IMG/VR virus record: IMGVR_UViG_3300032007_000001
DNA from: a virus
Taxonomy: Duplodnaviria; Caudoviricetes
Direction: 5' to 3' (one strand)
DNA: 64,000 bases
Positions 3,683 to 59,239 of this stretch are shown here, piece after piece. The notes under the pieces were generated by a model, which was not told the origin of the DNA, searched no databases, and worked only from the letters and a program-made list of their open reading frames with translations. The position numbers were made by a program, and so were the translations under genes. Position 1 is the first letter of the stretch; each line of letters starts with the position of its first letter.

Positions 3683-4675
3683 ATGTATTATTGTGATTCT
3701 TTGAATAATAGCGAATTTAATATAACTGGAAATATAAATAACATTTTCATTAAATTATGTGTTGCTGGTATAAAAAATCCGCCAGTTGTAAAATTAAATG
3801 TCAATCCACAAAAAACATTTGATGATTTTTTTAACTTAAAAAATAAATGTATAGAAAAATTTATTTTTCATAAAAATAATGACTTAAAAAATTTTTCTTG
3901 CATAGATTGCTATAGAAAAACAGAACGTGACAATCTTATAAATTTAGACAACAATATAAAACATATAAACATTAATATACATAGTTCTCCGTGCCAATGT
4001 AAATGTATATATTGTCAAAATGTCTATAATTTTAACGACAATGAAGAAACTAAAAAATGGTATAATGTTTTTTTTGAAACTATGTTATATGGAATTAAAA
4101 AACAATATATCTCGAAAGATTGTATGTGGAGACTAGATGCTGGAGAAATAACAATTCATCCATATAAAAAAGAATTTTTTAATTTATTAAAAGATTTTAA
4201 GACAAGATATTACACTAACGGATTTATATTTGATAATGATATTGCAAATGCATTGAAAAACATTAATAATGAATTAAGTATTTCCATTGATTGTGGTACA
4301 TCTCTTTCTTGGGAAAAAATAAAAGGATTTAATAATTTTGATAATGTAAAAAAACACATAAGCAAATATATACAACATTGCATAAATACACAACAAATAC
4401 ATATAAAATATATAGTACTGCCAGAATATAACAATAATTTGGATGATTATATTGGGATTATTAATTTCTTAAAAGAAAACAATATTAAAGAATTACAAAT
4501 AGCAAGAGATATACATTTAAGATATACTAAAGATATTAAATATAAAAATTCATTATTAACATCAGTTTCACAATTAAGTAAAATATGCAAATCTAGCAAT
4601 ATATACCCAGATATTATGAATAAATTCTTTTCGAAAGAAGAAAAAGATTATATAAAAATAAAAGAGCTTAATTAA
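3683..4675 (+). CDS. Radical SAM protein
   Basis: CQCKCIYC (CxxxCxxC), AGEITIHP, YTNG, ISIDCG motifs. Confidence 0.85.
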   Translation: MYYCDSLNNSEFNITGNINNIFIKLCVAGIKNPPVVKLNVNPQKTFDDFFNLKNKCIEKFIFHKNNDLKNFSCIDCYRKTERDNLINLDNNIKHININIHSSPCQCKCIYCQNVYNFNDNEETKKWYNVFFETMLYGIKKQYISKDCMWRLDAGEITIHPYKKEFFNLLKDFKTRYYTNGFIFDNDIANALKNINNELSISIDCGTSLSWEKIKGFNNFDNVKKHISKYIQHCINTQQIHIKYIVLPEYNNNLDDYIGIINFLKENNIKELQIARDIHLRYTKDIKYKNSLLTSVSQLSKICKSSNIYPDIMNKFFSKEEKDYIKIKELN

Positions 4676-5070: not shown

Positions 5071-5145
5071 TGGCAGGAACTGCCCGAATCGAACAGGCGT
5101 CCACGAATTTGGAGTTCGTGATGCTAGCCACTACACCAAGTTCCT
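5071..5145 (-). tRNA. tRNA-Trp(CCA)
   Basis: Cloverleaf; anticodon arm ACGAA-CT CCA AA-TTCGT; encoded CCA end. Confidence 0.92.
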
Positions 5146-5151
5146 ATAAAA

Positions 5152-5227
5152 TGGAGCTGGCGATAGGACTCGGACCTACAACCTGCGGTTTACAAAACCG
5201 CTGCTCTGCCAATTGAGCTACGCCAGC
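5152..5227 (-). tRNA. tRNA-Thr(TGT)
   Basis: GCGGT-TT TGT AA-ACCGC; CCA end; T-loop TCCGAGT variant. Confidence 0.92.
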
Positions 5228-5232
5228 ATAAA

Positions 5233-5306
5233 TGGAGCGAATGATGGGAATCGAACCCACGTAATCAGCTTGGAAGGCTGAAATTCTACCATTGAATTAC
5301 ATCCGC
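5233..5306 (-). tRNA. tRNA-Gly(TCC)
   Basis: TCAGC-CT TCC AA-GCTGA; TCCA end. Confidence 0.93.
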
Positions 5307-5478
5307 ATTATTTTTTATGAAATCAAATTTTACAAATTAAATAAAACAATAATTGCAATAAATATGACTGGAATAAATGCACGAGAACGCATTCTTATTG
5401 TTTGCATTTTGTTCTTTAATTGCATTGTTTCTTTCTTAAATTCTGTGTTTTTATAAGTTTTCATTATTTATCTTCCTT

Positions 5479-5889
5479 TCAATTAAGAATTTTTAGTGCT
5501 TTTTCAATATCTTCTTTTTGCAATCCTTTGTTAGAATCAGTAAGTACAAGATTCGTTTCTGTCAATTCATCCATATCCTTATCGTCATCAATGATTACAA
5601 AAGATTCAATATCTTTATCTTTCATCCAGTCTTTTATTTCTGAACCGCGAGTTCCAGGAAGACTTCTTGTAGCACCTATAACTTCAGTATTAATTAATTT
5701 CATTTTGTTTTCTACTAATTTTCTTAATGAAGGAATTCCTCGCCAAGAAGAAGACAAAACAATTTTTGCATTTGTCTTTTTCACTAATTCTCCTAAAAGG
5801 TCCAAGTGACTTTGTGTTTCAAGAGTTTGTGAAAATTTATCATTTATAGAATTTAATACTCCGTCTATATCCAAAAATATGACTTTCAT
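5479..5889 (-). CDS. HAD-family phosphatase, RNA-repair (Swiss Army Knife HAD_SAK_2)-like
   Basis: FLDIDGVLN, IVLSSSWR, RGSEIKDW, FVIIDDD motifs; inserted within tRNA cluster. Confidence 0.85.
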   Translation of the reverse strand: MKVIFLDIDGVLNSINDKFSQTLETQSHLDLLGELVKKTNAKIVLSSSWRGIPSLRKLVENKMKLINTEVIGATRSLPGTRGSEIKDWMKDKDIESFVIIDDDKDMDELTETNLVLTDSNKGLQKEDIEKALKILN

Positions 5890-5907
5890 ATCTTTTCCTT
5901 TCTTAAA

Positions 5908-5996
5908 TGGCGGAGTGGGTGGGATTTGAACCCACGCAGGATTTCTCCTCTAACGATTTAGCAAACCGTCCTCTTCAACCACTTGAGTACCACTCC
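5908..5996 (-). tRNA. tRNA-Ser(GCT)
   Basis: ACGGT-TT GCT AA-ATCGT; long variable arm; GCCA end. Confidence 0.92.
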
Positions 5997-6002
5997 ATGT
6001 TA

Positions 6003-6078
6003 TGGTGGAGACAAGGGGAATCGAACCCCTGACCTCTTGCTTGCAAGGCAAGTGCTCTCCCAGTTGAGCTATGTCCCC
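6003..6078 (-). tRNA. tRNA-Ala(TGC)
   Basis: GGGGACA acceptor with G3:U70; CTTGC-CT TGC AA-GCAAG. Confidence 0.95.
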
Positions 6079-6082
6079 ATTA

Positions 6083-6173
6083 TGGCGGATGGGGAGGGAT
6101 TCGAACCCCCGCGCGCTTTGCGACGCCTATCGGTTTTCAGGACCGAACTCTTCAGCCACTTGAGTACCCATCC
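6083..6173 (-). tRNA. tRNA-Ser(TGA)
   Basis: TCGGT-CC TGA AA-ACCGA (C33 instead of U33); long variable arm; GCCA end. Confidence 0.88.
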
Positions 6174-6178
6174 ATATA

Positions 6179-6255
<77 letters not shown>

Positions 6256-20449: not shown

Positions 20450-20525
20450 GCGACTGTAACTCAGTTGGTAGAGTAACTGACTTTTAATCAGTAAGTCGTG
20501 GGTTCAAGTCCCACCAGTCGCACCA
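20450..20525 (+). tRNA. tRNA-Lys(TTT)
   Basis: ACTGA-CT TTT AA-TCAGT; ACCA end; own TTTACT...TATAAT promoter. Confidence 0.94.
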
Positions 20526-25640: not shown

Positions 25641-25717
25641 TGGCAGAGGCGGTAGGAGTCGGACCTACGAATATTCGGGTCAAAGCCGAACGTGTTCAAC
25701 CACTTCACCACGCCCCT
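25641..25717 (-). tRNA. tRNA-Gln(TTG)
   Basis: TTCGG-CT TTG AC-CCGAA; GCCA end; T-loop TCCGACT variant. Confidence 0.9.
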
Positions 25718-25757
25718 ATTTTAAGTATGCAATTTGTATAAATGTTTTGTTTTTAAT

Positions 25758-25834
25758 TGGAGCGTACAGTTGGATTTGAACCAACGAATAACGGTTTTGC
25801 AGACCGTGCCCTTAGACCACTTGGGTATGTACGC
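25758..25834 (-). tRNA. tRNA-Cys(GCA)
   Basis: ACGGT-CT GCA AA-ACCGT; TCCA end. Confidence 0.93.
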
Positions 25835-25836
25835 AT

Positions 25837-25914
25837 TGGCTCCCGAGGTAGGACTCGAACCTACGACCTACGGTTTAACAGACCGTTGCTAACCACCAGC
25901 TGAGCTACTCGGGA
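25837..25914 (-). tRNA. tRNA-Asn(GTT)
   Basis: ACGGT-CT GTT AA-ACCGT; GCCA end. Confidence 0.93.
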
Positions 25915-25919
25915 ATATT

Positions 25920-26005
25920 TGGTTGGTCGGGTAGGATTTGAACCTACGAAGGATTACTCCGCGTGATTTACAGTCACGATGCTTTAACCACTTGCATACC
26001 GGCCA
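25920..26005 (-). tRNA. tRNA-Tyr(GTA)
   Basis: CGTGA-CT GTA AA-TCACG; long variable arm; ACCA end. Confidence 0.9.
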
Positions 26006-28815: not shown

Positions 28816-29179
28816 TGGTGGAGATGAGGAGAATCGAACTCCTGTCCGAAACAAGACTTCAAATGGGTCATTACCGCTGCTAGCTGGCTTATCGCACCAG
28901 TATACGTATAAAAGAAAGGGGGATTTGATGAAAATGGTTTTCTTAATTCTTAAGAAAAGTCCAAAGAAATAGTGGGAATTATCTGAAACCCAGTAGCGGC
29001 TTCTCCACAGTCTTACTGGGGGCTGGTAAAGCGTGGCAGACTTACGCCGGCATTACCTTACGCAGCGATGGCAACATAATCGTTGTCAGTTATTTTTTTG
29101 AAACGTTTTTTAGGATTCAGTTTCTTCATCCCGCGGAACCTCAAATGATTTCTCATCCCGTCGAAACCATTGCATCCCC
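28816..29179 (-). ncRNA. ssrA: tmRNA
   Basis: 5' GGGGATGCAATGGTTTCGACGGG; 3' GGAGTTCGATTCTCCTCATCTCCACCA; tag (A)DNDYVAIAA* after ATAACT. Confidence 0.95.
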
Positions 29180-34450: not shown

Positions 34451-35650
34451 TTATCCTTTCAATTCGACCAATGCATAGATAGTAACCTGTGCAGGGTCAT
34501 ATACTATATATTCATTATTAATAAGGTCAGCACCTTTATGTGCAAATACGCTATCATAATGTCCCATATCTTCCAATTTCTTCTTGTTCAAATTATAACA
34601 CGAAGAATCGTGTTTGTAAATATTCTTATATTTTCCAACCCTTACAGAAAATACAGCCATAAAAGCATTATTAGAATTTCCTCTTGCCCAATAGCTCCCA
34701 TTTGCAGAAGTATATCCATAACTTTTTTTAGCTCTATCAGCGAAATAAACACCTGTTCCAAACATAGCACCACATGTTGTTACTCCAGAAGGCCTGATAA
34801 GCATTCCATTCTTAAGAATCGAAAGCCAATTTTCGTTTCTGCTGCCGTGCCAAAACTTCATTTCAGTACGATGCAAATCATTAATTTGTTTTTTACTATC
34901 TTTTGCATAACGGTCTTGTGTAGATTTATTTTCAACGTACCAGCAATTTACATACTTATCTTTAATATCTCCAAGCATTGAAATAACTTCGTCTTTCAAT
35001 GCTTTATCACATTCTTTCATTGTAATGCCAAGAGAGTCGAGAATTGAATCGTTGTTAGAAATAGGAGTAGAAGTATTCATATAAACCTTGGTTGACATAA
35101 CATCAAGAAGGTCTGATTCGCGTTTCAAAATCTTTGCAAAATCATTTGTGCTTTCAGCAAGATAATACTGTACCTTTTTCATTTTACGAGGAATAATGGA
35201 AAACAAATCGATAAGTGCAGTATTAAAAGTATTTACATTGTATTTTTTCAAATCAGCCATTTCGTCCAATATCGTTCTCGCTTCATCTACCATGGCCTGA
35301 GTGACTTGATTATCCTTTACCTTATAGTTATCAACCAATGTCTTGTTTGCATATCCTTGAAGGCGGAAAATAACATCTGCAATGGACTTAGATTTGATAT
35401 CAGCAAATGTATTGCTAACCGAAACGTTGTCTACCAAATCTTCAATGAGATGAGATTTGTCAACGTATCCTTTTTTGATTTTGGAACGATAAATCTTGTC
35501 CCATTCATTGATAGGCTTAGAAAGAGTTGTACAAGTTGCACCAATACGACCATATTTAATTGTAAATGTATTTCCATTCGGAATCATATCATAAAATTTG
35601 TTATGATTATCAGCAGATACAAACACCAAATGTACAGGTTTCATTATCAT
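34451..35650 (-). CDS. PARP-like ADP-ribosyltransferase (WGR + helical regulatory + catalytic domains)
   Basis: HNKFY.M...YGRIG...KIKKGY (WGR); LFSIIP helical region; H-Y-E triad FWHGS, GVYFA, NEYIVY. Confidence 0.9.
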   Translation of the reverse strand: MIMKPVHLVFVSADNHNKFYDMIPNGNTFTIKYGRIGATCTTLSKPINEWDKIYRSKIKKGYVDKSHLIEDLVDNVSVSNTFADIKSKSIADVIFRLQGYANKTLVDNYKVKDNQVTQAMVDEARTILDEMADLKKYNVNTFNTALIDLFSIIPRKMKKVQYYLAESTNDFAKILKRESDLLDVMSTKVYMNTSTPISNNDSILDSLGITMKECDKALKDEVISMLGDIKDKYVNCWYVENKSTQDRYAKDSKKQINDLHRTEMKFWHGSRNENWLSILKNGMLIRPSGVTTCGAMFGTGVYFADRAKKSYGYTSANGSYWARGNSNNAFMAVFSVRVGKYKNIYKHDSSCYNLNKKKLEDMGHYDSVFAHKGADLINNEYIVYDPAQVTIYALVELKG

Positions 35651-37989: not shown

Positions 37990-38208
37990 TCACAATCCAT
38001 ATTTTAATGTAAACTTTTTGAATCTCTTAGAATGTCTTAAATATCTTATTGCATAAAATGTTTTGCAAGAAGTAAAACTTTTTTCAATGATTTGGTACTG
38101 ATATTTTGTAGCTAAACTATCTATATACCAATAATCATATTTTGTCCAATGTTCTTTTCTATTCAATGTTTCAATGGCTTCACTTAAAATCATTTTATCA
38201 CAACCCAT
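37990..38208 (-). CDS. C-terminal GL family protein
   Basis: Ends TLKYGL*. Confidence 0.65.
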   Translation of the reverse strand: MGCDKMILSEAIETLNRKEHWTKYDYWYIDSLATKYQYQIIEKSFTSCKTFYAIRYLRHSKRFKKFTLKYGL

Positions 38209-38544
38209 TATTCAATAAAAATTTACAAATTCTTTTTTTTCTTTTCAGTGTTTTCATATTGCTTTTTGTATTTCTAAATTTTCTACACATTGAAAAAGCA
38301 TTTTCAAATTCAAATACCTTCATATTCATAATGAACTTTAACGTTTTCATATTTTATCCTCTAAATGAATAACACATTGGAAACAATACAAAAATGAACA
38401 AAAACAAATAGAACATCGATATGCAAACAATCTCAGCTATTTTGTCATTCATTTTATGTTCTCCATACATTTTTATTTGATTATACCATAATTCGAAATT
38501 CATGTAAAAAAATTTTTATAAATCAAATATCGAAAAAACTTCAA

Positions 38545-38629
38545 ATTTTTATCTCGTGATGTGAGGGTCATTAGTACATTTTTCTGGATAAAATCAATGT
38601 TTTTTTCGTGCGTCACAAAACTGCACGCT
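38545..38629 (-). repeat. Dispersed ~90-bp intergenic element, copy B
   Basis: AGCGTGCAGTTTT...ACTAATGACCCTCACATCACGAGATAAAA on minus strand. Confidence 0.8.
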
Positions 38630-38711
38630 GAAAGTAGAAAAGCCATGACATCCTTGTCATGGCTTTTCTGACGCTATCACAAACCCCTTGCAGAAAGGTG
38701 CGTGACCAAAA

Positions 38712-40616
38712 TTATTTAATAAAATCCAAGAAAATATCTTTAGTTACTTGTTTTGGGTCAAGTACTATATCCCATTCTTCGTCATCTTCTTTTTCAAATT
38801 TAGCTCCGGCCATCTTAAGAACATCATTTAACTTAAGACAACTATTTACCATAGTACGCATAGCCGAATTTGCATATTTTGCTTTTTCTCCATACGATGC
38901 AGCAATTGATTTACTAATAGAAGAAGATGAGAAATAGAATACTTTCTTTTCTGGGGCAGATACATCTAAGAATCCAAGACTCATACCATTCTTTTCTATA
39001 TAATTATCAATGCAGAACTTCATTGTATGAGAATCAATAAGATAGTTTTTGTCTACTCTATCTTTTTCACATTCATCAACGATAAACTTAAAGTCTACGT
39101 GATGTGGTCCGCTATAAATATTAAGAGTGAATGAAATAAGTTCATCATCAACGACGTTATCATTAAGATAATAAGCTTCAGTAGCACCATTAGGAGCTGG
39201 TGCGTCAGTCATATCTCCAGTAAATAATACTTCTCTATTATTACGTTCGTTTTTATAATTGGACCCATAATTATACCATGATACATCATATTTTTCAGAC
39301 TTCATATGCAAATCTAAGTCTGTACGATATCCATTAGTATTTAGCCAATGAACACCAAGTACAACAGTAGGAGGCAATATTATAGAAGAATTGAAAGGAA
39401 TATTATTCCAAAACATCTTTTCAGATGTAGGCATAGCATAAACAAAATTATTCGGAATAAAAATCTTCTTTCCTTCTACATTCTTACGAACAGTATCAAC
39501 GATATTCTTCATAATGACATGAAGCACATCATCACTCACGTTAAAGTCATTTTTATATTCTTCTACATAAGCCAACCCATTCCTTATAAGATAAATGATA
39601 TGTTCTGGGTCATTCCTACGGAAAAGAATACTGTTTGCAAGAGAAATGCGTTTGAAAATTGTAACGTTTTCAAGTTCTTTCTCAAGTTCGTTAATATCAA
39701 CATCCTTATGCGTTACGATATCAAGAATTTTTTCTTTCTTCGGCTTATGGTATTTGTCTGCAATACGATTAATCTGATTAATAAAAGTGCAGAATTGACG
39801 ATTCCCATTAGCACTATGCTTAAAAGCAAGGAAAATCTTTTTATAGCGATGGAAAATAGAAGCGAGTTTTGTAATCTTTATCTTATAGAAATCATCAAAA
39901 TTAACGTTTGCACTATAAGAAATAGCTCTAAAAGTAGCATCGTTTTGAATAAGCATGGTGCTTTTAGTAGCCTTATAAACCTCATACTTCAAAAATTCCT
40001 CTGCATTTTGAGGAACAGTATTATAGTAGTCATACATCTTGAGACGCATTTCTTTATTTTTAACATTGTCAACGTCTCTACTAAAATCAATTTTATTATA
40101 GTTGATAATTGTAAATAACTCTTCGACTGTTTTGCTATTCAATGCCATACCAGAATAAAGCATTTTACGAACACGTTCTTCTATATTCTCGTTTGAGATA
40201 TAATTAATGATAGTTACTTGAAAAGGAGAATCGTCTTCTGGCAATTGAAGCACTTCATTTGGGATATAAACACTATCTTTATCATAAATACCAAGACTTT
40301 CAAACCCATAGGTTGTAAAATAATGAAGAATCTGGTCGCGAATCCATTCTTCTACTGATTTATCGGCTACAGAATGAAAAGATTTGTAGAAACCATTATT
40401 AAGCGCTTCCAAATCATAGCCATACATATCAATCACAGATGATTTAATATCATCTTTTGAATTAATATCAAAATGACTATATGCTTCGTCAGTAATGAAT
40501 ACACCATTTGAAATTTCATCATGTTTTATGTTGGAAATATCCATTTTGCCAAGGTGTGGGATTGCTTTAAAAAGATGGAGTACTGCTTTGAAATATTCTT
40601 GAGTTTTGGTATTCAT
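38712..40616 (-). CDS. Large protein with C-terminal TerD-like domain
   Basis: AAAGGAG RBS; QILHYFTTYG N-terminal motif; GVHW...RTDLDLH...FTGDMTDAP.PNGATEAYY TerD-like signature. Confidence 0.7.
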   Translation of the reverse strand: MNTKTQEYFKAVLHLFKAIPHLGKMDISNIKHDEISNGVFITDEAYSHFDINSKDDIKSSVIDMYGYDLEALNNGFYKSFHSVADKSVEEWIRDQILHYFTTYGFESLGIYDKDSVYIPNEVLQLPEDDSPFQVTIINYISNENIEERVRKMLYSGMALNSKTVEELFTIINYNKIDFSRDVDNVKNKEMRLKMYDYYNTVPQNAEEFLKYEVYKATKSTMLIQNDATFRAISYSANVNFDDFYKIKITKLASIFHRYKKIFLAFKHSANGNRQFCTFINQINRIADKYHKPKKEKILDIVTHKDVDINELEKELENVTIFKRISLANSILFRRNDPEHIIYLIRNGLAYVEEYKNDFNVSDDVLHVIMKNIVDTVRKNVEGKKIFIPNNFVYAMPTSEKMFWNNIPFNSSIILPPTVVLGVHWLNTNGYRTDLDLHMKSEKYDVSWYNYGSNYKNERNNREVLFTGDMTDAPAPNGATEAYYLNDNVVDDELISFTLNIYSGPHHVDFKFIVDECEKDRVDKNYLIDSHTMKFCIDNYIEKNGMSLGFLDVSAPEKKVFYFSSSSISKSIAASYGEKAKYANSAMRTMVNSCLKLNDVLKMAGAKFEKEDDEEWDIVLDPKQVTKDIFLDFIK

Positions 40617-40645
40617 AATTGACATTCTCCTTTCAAAAACGAGAA

Positions 40646-40680
40646 AACAAAAAGCTATCATTTCTTGAAAACGATAGCCC
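40646..40680 (-). terminator. Terminator-like hairpin between RNA repeat array and TerD-like gene
   Basis: GCTATCGTTT-TCAAG-AAATGATAGC followed by TTTTT. Confidence 0.6.
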
Positions 40681-40693
40681 AACATTCATTTAA

Positions 40694-41077
40694 GTATTTG
40701 CGAAAAGTAAATAACCCTATTGAAAAGGAACTCTCTATGCAAATACATTAATAACAATTAGGCGAGAAGTAAAAACATAATCTTTATTAAGCTTATAATG
40801 TACAGGAACCCCTTATGCCTAAAATGCCTTTAAGATGCGAGAAGTAAATCACTGTTTTCAAATAACTTGCGAAAAGGAACTTCTTATGCATCTGTAAATA
40901 TACTATTTGAAAAAAACATTTTTGTTTTTAACATTTCATATAAATTATAATATGATTTCATAGAAAGTAAATACTTTTTTATAATACAAACAAAAACAAA
41001 GCGAGAAGTAAAATCATCTGTTGTATGCGCCATTGCTGGCGCATGTAGTAATAAAAAGGAACTTCTTATGCTTTGTT
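40694..41077 (-). ncRNA. Array of four conserved structured RNA hairpins
   Basis: Copies 40694-40746, 40758-40822, 40833-40893, 40995-41077; GC-ATA-RRRRGT-TCCT...TTAC-YYYY-C-GC with covarying outer stems. Confidence 0.75.
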
Positions 41078-41089
41078 AATTAAAAAATA

Positions 41090-41845
41090 TTATTTCAAAT
41101 CATAAAAATCTATATTATTTCTTAAATATGAAAGTATTTCTAATCGTAAGAAATTATCTGGGTTTTCGAATGAAAAATATTCTCTGCCTTGTAATTTATA
41201 ATGATGTACGTAATTATCAAAATAAATTAAGTCTAATGGGTAAATTTTTGATGAATCTTTAAGTAATTTTTTACAATCTTTATAATTCTTAAAATCAAAC
41301 CAATGTAATGGACATAATGTTCTATCTTTATAATTACAGCTGCTATTTACAAGCAATACATAATTATATTTTTTAGGTAATTCTTTCAATAATGAAATTT
41401 GTCTATTATATCTATAATCCAATACTATATAATCATAACAGCTTAAATCCAAATTAAAAATATCTTCATGATGCAATAATCTTGTTATAGAAAGTGTTAA
41501 AATAATATCATCATATTTTGTTTTTAATTGTTTTGCTAATGTATCATCATTTATTGTAAATCTTTTGAATTCTAAACTATAATATTTTTGTATAATTTCC
41601 TTGCTACAATTTTTTTGAATTAATATTTCTATTGGAAAATGTTTTTTTACTTCATTTAATAAATATAAATATTCATCAAAATCGTGTGAAAAATTGCCAT
41701 CTTCAACTCTAGTATTTATTCCATCTCGTATATAAGATGGCGTATATATGCATTCTATATTTTCTTTTCTTTTTGAGAAGAAATCAATAAACTTTTTGTT
41801 TGTTTCTTCATTAATTGGCATATATGGTATTTCAAATTTTTTCAT
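41090..41845 (-). CDS. U32-family-like protein, second copy
   Basis: FEIPY, LTLSITR, VLDYRYNR, LLVNSSC, HYKLQGR motifs paralleling 1480..2442. Confidence 0.65.
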   Translation of the reverse strand: MKKFEIPYMPINEETNKKFIDFFSKRKENIECIYTPSYIRDGINTRVEDGNFSHDFDEYLYLLNEVKKHFPIEILIQKNCSKEIIQKYYSLEFKRFTINDDTLAKQLKTKYDDIILTLSITRLLHHEDIFNLDLSCYDYIVLDYRYNRQISLLKELPKKYNYVLLVNSSCNYKDRTLCPLHWFDFKNYKDCKKLLKDSSKIYPLDLIYFDNYVHHYKLQGREYFSFENPDNFLRLEILSYLRNNIDFYDLK

Positions 41846-42275
41846 ATATTTATCACCATATATATATTATTTTGTACAAAAAAAATTTTTTTTGATATAA
41901 TTAATTGAAGGTGGTGACAAAATATGCAAGAAATTGATTCGAGTTATTTTAAGGATTTGCATTCAAATGCTTTTTTGCGTTTACAAGGGAAAGAACAAGA
42001 AGAAAAAATAAAAGATATACAAAGACAATTCAAAAATTATTTGAAGAAAAAATGTAATCTGAATGACAAACAATTTGAGATTCTTTATAAATATAGCAAG
42101 GCATCAAGCTATAAAACATTCGAAAATAATTTTATAAAGTATATGCAAATTTATAAAGAAGTAAAAGAAAATGAAAAAGTTGATTGATAAATTTCAATCA
42201 ACTTTTTTAATTATGCTAAACAAAAAAAATTGGTTCTTCACTTTTAATTAGAATAACTAAAGTGAGGTATCAACA

Positions 42276-59162: not shown

Positions 59163-59239
59163 TGGTGGACCCTCACGGACTCGAACCGCGGACTACCTGT
59201 TTATGAGACAGGTGTTCTAACCAACTGAACTAAGGGTCC
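59163..59239 (-). tRNA. tRNA with CAT anticodon, probably Ile2 (lysidine) rather than Met
   Basis: CCTGT-CT CAT AA-ACAGG; GGACCCT acceptor resembles Firmicute tRNA-Ile2. Confidence 0.85.

What the first reader, a model, noticed from the sequence alone, without database searches (positions are those of the whole stretch)
38712..41077. Four covarying RNA hairpins and a terminator upstream of a 634-aa TerD-like gene: candidate RNA-protein system
Seen on the minus strand: four units share outer stem-GC-AUA-RRRRGU-UCCU-(variable loop)-UUAC-YYYY-C-GC-outer stem. Outer stems differ but always pair (AACAAAGC/GCUUUGUU, AGAUGC/GCAUCU, UUAGGC/GCCUAA, GUAUUUGC/GCAAAUAC). Inner-stem variants AGGGGU and GAGAGU pair through G.U only on the minus strand, implying a functional RNA sense to the gene. 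The AUA/C internal loop and UUCCU are invariant. A promoter lies at 40944-40971 and a terminator-like hairpin at 40646-40680 precedes the RBS. Established: promoter-RNA repeats-terminator-gene is the type III toxin-antitoxin layout, and a bulged helix with a variable loop is how Ro60 binds Y RNAs. Inference: the protein binds these RNAs, with the variable loops acting as guides, decoys or scaffolds. I cannot assign it to a named family.
Basis: partly seen in the sequence, partly recalled or inferred. Interest (0 to 1): 0.85.

Follow-up and report, generated by a model that had tools for sequence, protein, structure and literature searches.

The report
Handle-and-cargo RNAs beside TerD-fold protein
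Four small folded RNAs that share one conserved "handle" helix sit in front of an uncharacterised 634-residue phage gene; the same RNA-protein pair recurs in nearly every related phage and bacterial locus examined, and in relatives it often carries whole or rearranged tRNAs, so it looks like an undescribed counterpart of the Ro60/Y-RNA particle tied to tRNA biology.

Summary
Four hairpin units lie at 41077-40694 on the minus strand. Each has an outer stem, an ANA/C internal loop, a 6-bp inner stem, invariant UCCU, a variable loop and UAC. A terminator-like hairpin, an RBS and a 634-aa gene follow. The protein has an N-terminal helical domain with no fold match found, then a TerD-fold domain.

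A covariance model built on the handle finds it next to homologues of this gene in 144 of 152 loci that have upstream DNA. All 320 hits are on the gene's strand, and 12-13 of 14 pairs covary. Six further loci hold variant or inverted forms. Three bacterial isolate genomes each have one hit, beside the gene. No Rfam, Pfam, PHROG or PADLOC family fits, and no paper was found.

In relatives the variable loop often holds a circularly permuted tRNA, which hits Rfam YrlA below threshold. Alternatively the handle is inserted into a normal tRNA gene. The gene often sits inside phage tRNA clusters and is occasionally beside RtcB.

Best reading (0.55): a dedicated RNA-protein particle that works like Ro60/Y RNA but is not related to it. 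Rivals are tRNA maturation, a cis-regulatory leader, and a type III toxin-antitoxin pair.

This scan has flagged the same family before on other DNA.

The parts
40995..41077 (-). Handle RNA unit 1. It has an 8-bp outer stem, an AUA/C internal loop, inner stem AGAAGU/ACUUCU, UCCU, and a 45-nt loop containing a GC-rich hairpin. It starts 13 nt after the stop codon of the upstream ORF and is followed by a U-rich tract.
   Evidence: sequence; covariance-model hit of 42.3 bits, E 1.8e-10 (not in the training set); MFE -28.3, z -6.3.
40944..40971 (-). Promoter-like site, TTTACT-16-TATAAT, lying between unit 1 and unit 2.
   Evidence: 10 of 12 matches. Such sites are not enriched in the region, so this is weak evidence.
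40831..40895 (-). Handle RNA unit 2, with outer stem AGAUGC/GCAUCU.
   Evidence: (51.3 bits).
40756..40824 (-). Handle RNA unit 3, with outer stem UUAGGC/GCCUAA and inner stem AGGGGU/ACUUCU containing two G.U pairs.
   Evidence: (45.9 bits).
40694..40746 (-). Handle RNA unit 4, with outer stem GUAUUUGC/GCAAAUAC, inner stem GAGAGU/ACUUUU and a 21-nt loop.
   Evidence: 41.6 bits; z -3.9.
40642..40680 (-). Intrinsic-terminator-like hairpin with a U tract, between the RNA array and the gene.
   Evidence: (MFE -12.9, z -4.0). The same layout is seen in 37 of 125 related loci.
40626..40630 (-). Shine-Dalgarno sequence GGAGA, 9 nt before the ATG.
38712..40616 (-). Gene for the 634-aa partner protein.
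   Evidence: more than 710 homologues; 1146 clusters at 50% identity with E<=1e-30; AF2 model, pLDDT 85.7.
39462..40616 (-). N-terminal, mostly helical domain (residues 1-385). No fold match was found.
   Evidence: best Z 6.0, a generic helical match, and no Foldseek hit at E<=1e-3; no PDB sequence hit.
38859..39380 (-). TerD-fold beta-sandwich domain (residues about 413-586).
   Evidence: 2qz7 Z 11.1 and 2kxt Z 9.1. Foldseek probability 1.0 to TerD structures.
38636..38670 (-). Hairpin just after the stop codon, a probable transcript end.
   Evidence: sequence; one search gives only weak terminator-type Rfam hits here.

Best explanation
The four units are genes for small non-coding RNAs of a large, uncatalogued family. 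Each RNA has a conserved 'handle' and a free-to-vary distal module, the 'cargo'. The handle consists of a GC-closed outer stem, an ANA/C internal loop, a 6-bp inner stem ending in G-C and U-A, then unpaired UCCU on the 5' side and U(U) on the 3' side.

The adjacent 634-aa protein (an N domain with no fold match found, plus a TerD-fold domain) is their dedicated partner and most likely binds the handle. Together they would form a ribonucleoprotein in the way Ro60 binds the conserved stem of Y RNAs. The cargo would then act as an adaptor or bait. In this window the cargos are short hairpins or loops. In many relatives they are tRNA bodies, which points to a role in tRNA surveillance, repair or protection during infection.

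In this window units 2-4 are probably made from their own promoter and mostly end at the terminator. Read-through would give the mRNA, so RNA is made in excess over protein.

Shown: the RNA structure, the strand, the covariation, the near-obligate co-location, the single copy per bacterial genome, the tRNA cargos, and the lack of any other conserved protein partner.

Inferred: physical binding, the adaptor role, and the tRNA-related function.
For: Structure and strand:
- 12 of 14 pairs (68 units) and 13 of 14 pairs (106 model hits) show changes on both sides.
- 0 of 500 shuffles reach the observed covariation, and slid controls collapse.

Linkage to the gene:
- The model hits 78 of 80 viral loci and 66 of 80 genome loci.
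- All 320 hits are on the gene's strand. Nearly all lie within 600 nt upstream or directly downstream.
- The loci without hits mostly lack upstream DNA or carry inverted or variant handles.
- Three bacterial isolate genomes each give one hit, which lies next to the gene. Their neighbours are housekeeping genes.
- No other protein family is conserved in the flanks.

Independent RNA rather than only a leader:
- Arrays lie downstream of the gene in L040, L061, L054, L013, L058 and S-CRM01.
- A unit lies 2.5 kb away inside the tRNA cluster of S-CBWM1.
- A terminator sits between the RNA and the gene here and in 37 loci.

Y-RNA likeness:
- Permuted-tRNA cargos hit Rfam YrlA at 48.5, 37.5 and 37.1 bits (gathering score 69).
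- The gene lies inside phage tRNA clusters: 42 of 160 loci carry tRNA genes in the flanks, nearly all on the gene's strand, and both cultured cyanophages do so too.
- RtcB lies within 4 kb in 4 loci.
Against:
- The protein shows no recognisable RNA-binding or TROVE domain. Ro60 (1yvp) scores only Z 4.0.
- The TerD fold has no known RNA role.
- The upstream, same-strand position with a terminator is also what a cis-regulatory leader looks like.
- Many tRNA cargos keep canonical anticodon loops and an encoded CCA. A mere adaptor would not obviously need these.
Confidence: 0.55

Rival explanations
1. tRNA maturation system. In this reading the handle is a processing signal, analogous to the bulge-helix-bulge motif of archaeal and algal introns and of permuted tRNA genes. 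The protein recognises the handle and directs its excision. The ends are then joined, for example by RtcB, so that interrupted or circularly permuted phage tRNA genes yield working tRNAs. Plain hairpin units, such as the four here, would be regulators or decoys of that enzyme.
For: - About 22 loci have natural-order tRNA genes, many ending in an encoded CCA, with a capped handle of about 35 nt inserted at positions 29/30 to 31/32. Three stand in a row before the gene in Marinicella.
- About 30 units hold permuted tRNAs whose two halves rebuild a 5-bp anticodon stem and a canonical 7-nt loop.
- The same motif marks both topologies.
- Phage G004 has no canonical tRNA-Asn, but it has an embedded Asn(GUU).
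- RtcB lies next to the module in 4 loci.
Against: - Most units, including all four here and the single units in bacterial chromosomes, carry no tRNA.
- The bacterial genomes examined show no further handles in their tRNA genes.
- Embedded tRNAs duplicate canonical ones in G007 and L019.
- Linker lengths between handle and tRNA vary, so no fixed cleavage ruler exists.
- Several anticodon loops are non-canonical.
- The protein has no detectable nuclease or ligase domain.
Confidence: 0.15
2. Cis-acting leader. In this reading the handle is the protein's own operator in the 5' untranslated region. The protein binds it to shut off its own synthesis by attenuation or translational repression, and the RNAs have no function of their own.
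For: - The usual position is directly upstream on the same strand, with the array ending less than 40 nt before the gene in 63 of 125 loci.
- A terminator follows the RNA in the window and in the Selenomonadaceae loci.
- Bacterial loci have one RNA per gene.
Against: - Some arrays lie downstream of the gene or kilobases away.
- Arrays reach 7 units.
- The cargos are elaborate, include tRNAs and are conserved.
- Unit 1 here lies upstream of the candidate promoter.
- Autoregulation could coexist with the particle model rather than replace it.
Confidence: 0.15
3. Type III toxin-antitoxin-like pair. In this reading the protein is toxic and the RNAs neutralise it by binding.
For: The window has the promoter, RNA units, terminator and gene layout, and the RNA and protein are strictly co-inherited.
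Against: - No match to ToxN/AbiQ-type toxins and no PADLOC hit. The fold is helical plus TerD.
- The units are divergent rather than near-identical tandem copies.
- Bacterial loci have one or two units and sit among housekeeping genes.
- Half of the loci have no terminator.
Confidence: 0.05
4. The repeats act as DNA, for example as protein-binding sites or recombination sites, not as RNA.
For: None specific; the inverted repeats would also exist in DNA.
Against: G.U-only pairs are confined to one strand. All 320 hits have a strict single-strand orientation. Compensatory changes keep the pairing but not the sequence.
Confidence: 0.02

Closest known systems
Ro60 (Rsr; TROVE + vWA) with bacterial and phage Y RNAs YrlA/YrlB (Rfam RF02553; Chen et al. 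2014, PMC4201824; for example the Salmonella rsr-yrlBA-rtcBA operon)
   Same: - One to several different small RNAs are encoded beside one protein gene.
- Each RNA has a conserved protein-side stem plus a variable module.
- The module is often a tRNA body in permuted order (T arm, closed acceptor stem, D arm). Relatives hit the YrlA model at E 4e-10 but below its gathering score.
- The pair occurs sporadically in bacteria and in phages, with occasional RtcB adjacency.
   Different: - The protein has no TROVE or vWA match and its fold is helical plus TerD.
- The handle sequence and geometry differ from the Y-RNA motif GNCGAAN0-1G, and the Ro-side stem of the YrlA model aligns poorly.
- The window's own units hit no Rfam family.
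- Many cargos keep a full anticodon loop.
- The handle also occurs as an insertion in ordinary tRNA genes.
- The Ro-like ORF42 of FelixO1 is unrelated, and that phage lacks this handle.
Type III toxin-antitoxin systems (ToxIN, AbiQ/antiQ, CptIN)
   Same: The window has the promoter, RNA units, terminator and protein gene order, with the RNA and protein co-inherited.
   Different: - The toxin family and fold are not matched.
- The units are not identical tandem repeats.
- Covarying stems and unique loops suggest several distinct RNAs rather than one processed antitoxin.
Permuted and intron-containing tRNA genes processed through a bulge-helix-bulge motif (Cyanidioschyzon merolae and archaea; from my own knowledge)
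   Same: One RNA motif marks both interrupted tRNA genes and circularly permuted ones, in which the 3' half precedes the 5' half.
   Different: - The motif is a 3-nt/1-nt internal loop plus a 6-bp helix, not a bulge-helix-bulge.
- The insertion site is 29/30 to 31/32, not 37/38.
- The hosts are bacteria and phages.
- Most copies carry no tRNA at all.
TerD family proteins (PF02342) and the MXAN_6230/SCO0854 RING-domain family (NCBIfam NF041916)
   Same: - The C-terminal domain has the TerD fold (Z 11.1).
- The whole protein superposes on the SCO0854-family model in the ESM Atlas (TM 0.75 over 607 residues).
- There is a local NF041916 hit with E 3e-8.
   Different: - No Pfam TerD hit at E<=1.
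- No ter operon neighbours.
- No RING domain, and the NF041916 score is 32 bits against a cut-off of 600.
- Neither family has a known RNA partner.

Membership tests
Ro60/Rsr - Y RNA particle | The protein carries a TROVE domain detectable by sequence. | tested here: not met
   No TROVE hit in Pfam at E<=1. No PDB chain matched by the family profile at E<=10. No relation to the FelixO1 Ro-like ORF42.
Ro60/Rsr - Y RNA particle | Ring-shaped HEAT-repeat fold of Ro60. | tested here: inconclusive
   1yvp aligns at Z 4.0, rmsd 5.3, 190 residues, rank 45. It is not among the top 50 for the N domain alone.
Ro60/Rsr - Y RNA particle | The RNA matches Rfam YrlA (RF02553) at the gathering score, or carries the Ro-binding motif. 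| tested here: not met
   The window's units give no YrlA hit at E<=10. tRNA-bearing relatives reach 48.5 bits against a gathering score of 69, through the tRNA-like core only.
Ro60/Rsr - Y RNA particle | RNA genes are encoded next to the protein gene, and at least one has a tRNA-like module. | tested here: met
   Adjacency holds in 144 of 152 loci. tRNA modules are present in many relatives but not in the window's own four units.
Type III toxin-antitoxin | ToxN/AbiQ/CptN-type endoribonuclease toxin. | tested here: not met
   No Pfam, PADLOC or PHROG match. The fold is helical plus TerD.
Type III toxin-antitoxin | Antitoxin made of near-identical tandem repeats. | tested here: not met
   TRF finds no repeat that matches the units. 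The stems and loops differ between units.
Type III toxin-antitoxin | Promoter, repeats, terminator and gene in that order. | tested here: met
   for the window. This holds in only 37 of 125 related loci.
TerD family (PF02342) | TerD beta-sandwich fold. | tested here: met
   2qz7 Z 11.1 and 2kxt Z 9.1. Foldseek probability 1.0.
TerD family (PF02342) | Match to the Pfam TerD model. | tested here: not met
   No hit at E<=1.
MXAN_6230/SCO0854 RING family (NF041916) | Score over the curated cut-off, and a RING domain. | tested here: not met
   32.2 bits against a cut-off of 600, covering residues 418-486 only. No longer fused relatives were found.
Bulge-helix-bulge tRNA introns / permuted tRNA genes | Two 3-nt bulges separated by a 4-bp helix at the exon-intron junctions. 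| tested here: not met
   The handle geometry, read from the alignments, is a 3-nt/1-nt internal loop followed by a 6-bp helix, and the linkers to the tRNA vary in length.
Bulge-helix-bulge tRNA introns / permuted tRNA genes | Excision and ligation of the halves. | not testable with these tools

The most novel reading that the evidence does not exclude
The handle would be the recognition element of a protein-dependent tRNA processing pathway in bacteria and phages, a kind not described before. The TerD-fold protein, with a ligase such as RtcB, would remove the handle from interrupted and circularly permuted tRNA genes. Phage tRNAs would then be kept caged and released on demand, for instance to replace tRNAs cut by host anticodon nucleases.
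Probability: 0.13. Interest if true: 0.95.

Novelty: new variant of a known kind. Interest (0 to 1): 0.8.

Why it matters
If the pair is a particle, it is a second, unrelated solution to the Ro60/Y-RNA design. It is widespread: 1146 protein clusters at 50% identity, found in phages, in Selenomonadaceae chromosomes, in cyanobacteria, Desulfobacterota and Gammaproteobacteria, and in contigs binned with Asgard archaea.

It would give a function to a large family of 'hypothetical' phage proteins that sit in tRNA clusters. It would also explain intergenic stretches that are now left blank or mis-annotated, for example g173c of cyanophage S-CRM01.

The tRNA bodies mounted on the handle, in both permuted and inserted topologies, link it to the contest over tRNAs between phages and host anticodon nucleases, and possibly to a new route of tRNA maturation.

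Cultured systems exist for testing it: S-CRM01, S-CBWM1, Selenomonas ruminantium, Anaerovibrio sp. JC8 and Marinicella meishanensis.

Tried and rejected
- Rfam at E<=10 over 38000-42000 gave only three weak, unrelated hits.
- Pfam, PHROGs, NCBIfam and PADLOC on the protein gave nothing beyond a local NF041916 hit.
- The PDB profile search gave no hit.
- Fold searches of the N domain gave only generic helical matches: VIA wide best Z 6.0, Foldseek none at E<=1e-3, and the Atlas returned only its own family.
- The search for longer fused relatives found none.
- blastn and megablast of the region against cultured phages found no match.
- ARAGORN on in-silico circularised loops, meant to locate a fixed splice junction, accepted almost any junction and so was uninformative.
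- The idea of a fixed 12/6-nt cleavage ruler was dropped after more examples showed variable linkers.
- The idea that short loops generally mimic anticodon loops was dropped. Only 11 of 226 are canonical, against about 2 in shuffles, and most hairpin caps are GNRA or UUCG tetraloops.
- The idea that the invariant UCCU pairs with a GGA in the cargo was dropped, because AGGA and GGA are not enriched.
- Complementary distribution of embedded and canonical tRNAs is equivocal. It holds for G004 and G003 but not for G007 or L019.
- No conserved protein neighbour exists. The top cluster was antisense ORFs inside the gene itself.
- FelixO1 was tested because of an earlier scan note. It has no R1 handle, and its Ro-like protein is unrelated.
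- The own-genome search could not be run because no genome is held.
Full report
**1. What is in the window.**
Read on the minus strand, the stretch 41077-40694 holds four units with one plan:
- an outer stem closed by G-C pairs;
- a 3-nt AUA bulge opposite a single C;
- a 6-bp inner stem whose last two pairs are always G-C and U-A;
- unpaired UCCU;
- a variable loop of 21-45 nt;
- U(U), then AC and the 3' strand of the inner stem.

The inner stems of units 3 and 4 need G.U pairs that exist only on this strand.

The pattern GCATARRRRGTTCCT occurs four times in 64 kb, all here, and none of 100 shuffles reached four. Each unit's minimum-free-energy fold is the proposed one. TRF sees no tandem repeat, because the units share structure more than sequence.

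Unit 1 begins 13 nt after the stop codon of the upstream ORF. It lies upstream of the promoter-like site at 40971-40944. That site scores 10 of 12, but such sites are no more frequent here than in shuffles. Units 2-4 are packed 6-9 nt apart.

They are followed by a terminator-like hairpin with a U tract at 40680-40642, then a GGAGA RBS, then the ATG at 40616. The longer ORF starting at 40685 begins inside the terminator, and homologues do not support it.

**2. The protein.**
The 634-aa product has no Pfam, PHROG, PADLOC or PDB-sequence match. The AlphaFold model is confident (pLDDT 85.7).
- Residues about 413-586 have the TerD fold: 2qz7 Z 11.1, 2kxt Z 9.1, Foldseek probability 1.0.
- Residues 1-385 are mostly helical. 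Folded alone, they match nothing above generic helical scores.
- Ro60 (1yvp) reaches only Z 4.0.
- In the ESM Atlas the whole fold resembles the MXAN_6230/SCO0854 RING-domain family (TM 0.75). There is a local NCBIfam hit far below the cut-off.

The family is large and uniform in length: 1146 clusters at 50% identity with E<=1e-30.

**3. The RNA family and its link to the gene.**
I fetched 160 loci that encode homologues with 29-50% protein identity. Eighty came from viral contigs and 80 from genomes.

A strict structural finder located 269 units within 1.2 kb upstream in 125 loci. It found only 41 in all the other flanking sequence on both strands.

An alignment of 68 units shows changes on both sides in 12 of 14 pairs. 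No shuffle reached the observed covariation, and slid controls collapse.

The covariance model R1 gave these results:
- It finds the four window units and nothing else in 64 kb.
- It finds 214 hits in 78 of 80 viral loci. The two loci without a hit have no upstream DNA.
- It finds 106 hits in 66 of 80 genome loci.
- All 320 hits are on the gene's strand.
- The independent hit alignment shows covariation in 13 of 14 pairs.

Of the 14 genome loci without a hit:
- six have under 250 nt of upstream DNA;
- four carry the handle in inverted form inside tRNA genes;
- two carry variants, CCAGGU in L110 and GAUUCCU in L147;
- two show nothing.

Three isolate genomes (Anaerovibrio sp. JC8, Selenomonas ruminantium and Ktedonobacter racemifer) each give one hit, the one beside the gene. 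The 5'-half pattern is not enriched elsewhere in the two Selenomonadaceae genomes searched with it. There the neighbours are housekeeping genes such as tig-clpP-clpX, ldh, trpAB-recA and ileS. No other protein family is conserved in the flanks. The unit of inheritance is therefore one protein gene plus its handle RNA(s).

**4. What the variable part holds.**
- Most loops are 20-45 nt. When folded, their hairpins are mainly capped by GNRA or UUCG tetraloops. They are also enriched for UUGG and GGC.
- About 30 units have loops of 85-138 nt that contain a circularly permuted tRNA. The order is anticodon loop and 3' strand, variable loop, T arm, acceptor 3' strand, a short linker (sometimes after an encoded CCA), acceptor 5' strand, D arm, then the 5' strand of the anticodon stem.
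- In about 22 loci the topology is the reverse. An ordinary tRNA gene, often ending in CCA, carries a capped handle of about 35 nt inserted at positions 29/30 to 31/32. Three such genes stand in a row before the gene in Marinicella meishanensis.
- Rfam reads the inserted forms as tRNA with a long insertion. It reads the permuted forms as sub-threshold YrlA (48.5, 37.5 and 37.1 bits against a gathering score of 69). The match rests on the tRNA-like core, not on the Ro-binding stem.
- One unit (L053) encloses a whole tRNA with an 8-nt anticodon loop.

**5. Context.**
In 42 of 160 loci, canonical tRNA genes lie in the flanks, nearly all on the gene's strand. In several phages the gene sits in the middle of a 15-20-gene tRNA cluster.

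The two cultured cyanophages that have a homologue show the same arrangement. S-CRM01 has four units before g174 and one after it. S-CBWM1 has one unit before gp22 and one 2.5 kb away among the tRNAs.

RtcB lies within 4 kb in 4 loci.

Two layouts exist:
- The array abuts the RBS in 63 of 125 loci.
- A terminator stands between the RNA and the gene in 37 of 125 loci. This group includes all the Selenomonadaceae loci and the megaphage clade to which this window belongs.

The window itself carries 14 tRNAs and a tmRNA, and the protein's own contig is 504 kb. It is therefore very likely a megaphage, probably of rumen Selenomonadaceae.

**6. Interpretation.**
Several facts point to RNAs that work with the protein rather than merely in front of it:
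- near-obligate, strand-specific co-location across hosts and very divergent proteins;
- a single copy per bacterial genome;
- no other conserved partner;
- arrays on either side of the gene;
- terminators that separate the RNA from the mRNA.

The design copies Ro60 with its Y RNAs: a constant protein-side stem, exchangeable modules, tRNA-shaped modules in permuted order, phage and sporadic bacterial distribution, and occasional RtcB. But neither the protein nor the handle belongs to that family. I therefore favour an analogous particle (0.55).

The main rival (0.15) takes the tRNA cargos at face value. It notes canonical anticodon loops, encoded CCA, one motif for both interrupted and permuted genes, and a phage (G004) that lacks a canonical tRNA-Asn but embeds one. 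It proposes excision and ligation. Against it:
- most units, and all bacterial ones, have no tRNA;
- embedded tRNAs are redundant in G007 and L019;
- linker lengths vary;
- no catalytic domain is visible.

A pure cis-regulatory leader (0.15) fits the terminator layout. It does not fit the downstream or distant units or the elaborate cargos. It may well coexist with the particle model.

Type III toxin-antitoxin membership fails on the toxin family and on repeat identity (0.05).

**7. Novelty.**
I found no Rfam family, no Pfam family and no paper describing this pair. The jumbo-phage survey of Iyer et al. (PMC7824862) mentions TROVE proteins and TerD separately, not this pair.

Earlier follow-up reports of this same scan reached the same reading on other genomes. 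I tested that reading independently here.

One older note, on a Felix O1-type phage, concerns a different handle and an unrelated Ro-like protein.

Noticed in passing
window 5071-6255, 20450-20525, 25641-26005, 28816-29179, 59163-59239: There are fourteen tRNA genes and a tmRNA (tag DNDYVAIAA) in 64 kb, and the protein's own contig is 504 kb. The window is very likely part of a megaphage.
   Followed up: partly
window 34451-35650 (-): A 399-aa ORF matches PHROG 23333 (E 5e-61). In the related megaphage (L161/L162) a Pfam PARP protein lies directly downstream of the homologue, and a NAPRTase lies 5 kb further on.
   Followed up: no
L191 3291-3437 (NC_015569 132391-132537, minus strand): The annotated hypothetical gene g173c of cyanophage S-CRM01 lies antisense over three handle RNA units and is probably not a real gene.
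   Followed up: partly
L053 3663-3738: A complete tRNA with an 8-nt anticodon loop (ARAGORN anticodon 'ctat') and an encoded CCA is enclosed in the loop of a handle unit. It may be a quadruplet-reading or frameshift-suppressor tRNA.
   Followed up: no
L145 254-330: ARAGORN calls a tRNA with anticodon CUA (listed as Pyl, that is, an amber suppressor) in a tRNA cluster on a contig binned with Methanobrevibacter. This hints at stop-codon recoding in that phage.
   Followed up: no
L010 3572-3715 and L023 3825-3967: Two permuted tRNAs from different samples share a conserved GC-rich hairpin of about 33 nt in the linker that closes the acceptor stem.
   Followed up: no
L036, L039, L043, L129 at about 3855-3970: One permuted tRNA-like cargo is conserved among close phages except on its anticodon side, which reads AGAGUAC, AGAGGGA or AGAGGAC.
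   Followed up: no
L116, L117: The module also occurs on contigs binned with Asgard archaea (Promethearchaeota and Borrarchaeum). These may be viral or mis-binned contigs.
   Followed up: no
L019 634-1057: A full tmRNA gene (88 bits) lies inside a phage tRNA cluster 3 kb upstream of the module.
   Followed up: no
window 41090-41845 (-): The upstream 251-aa ORF has no family match except a weak HTH_72 hit (E 0.016). Unit 1 with its U-rich tail follows the ORF's stop codon by 13 nt and could also serve as its terminator.
   Followed up: no
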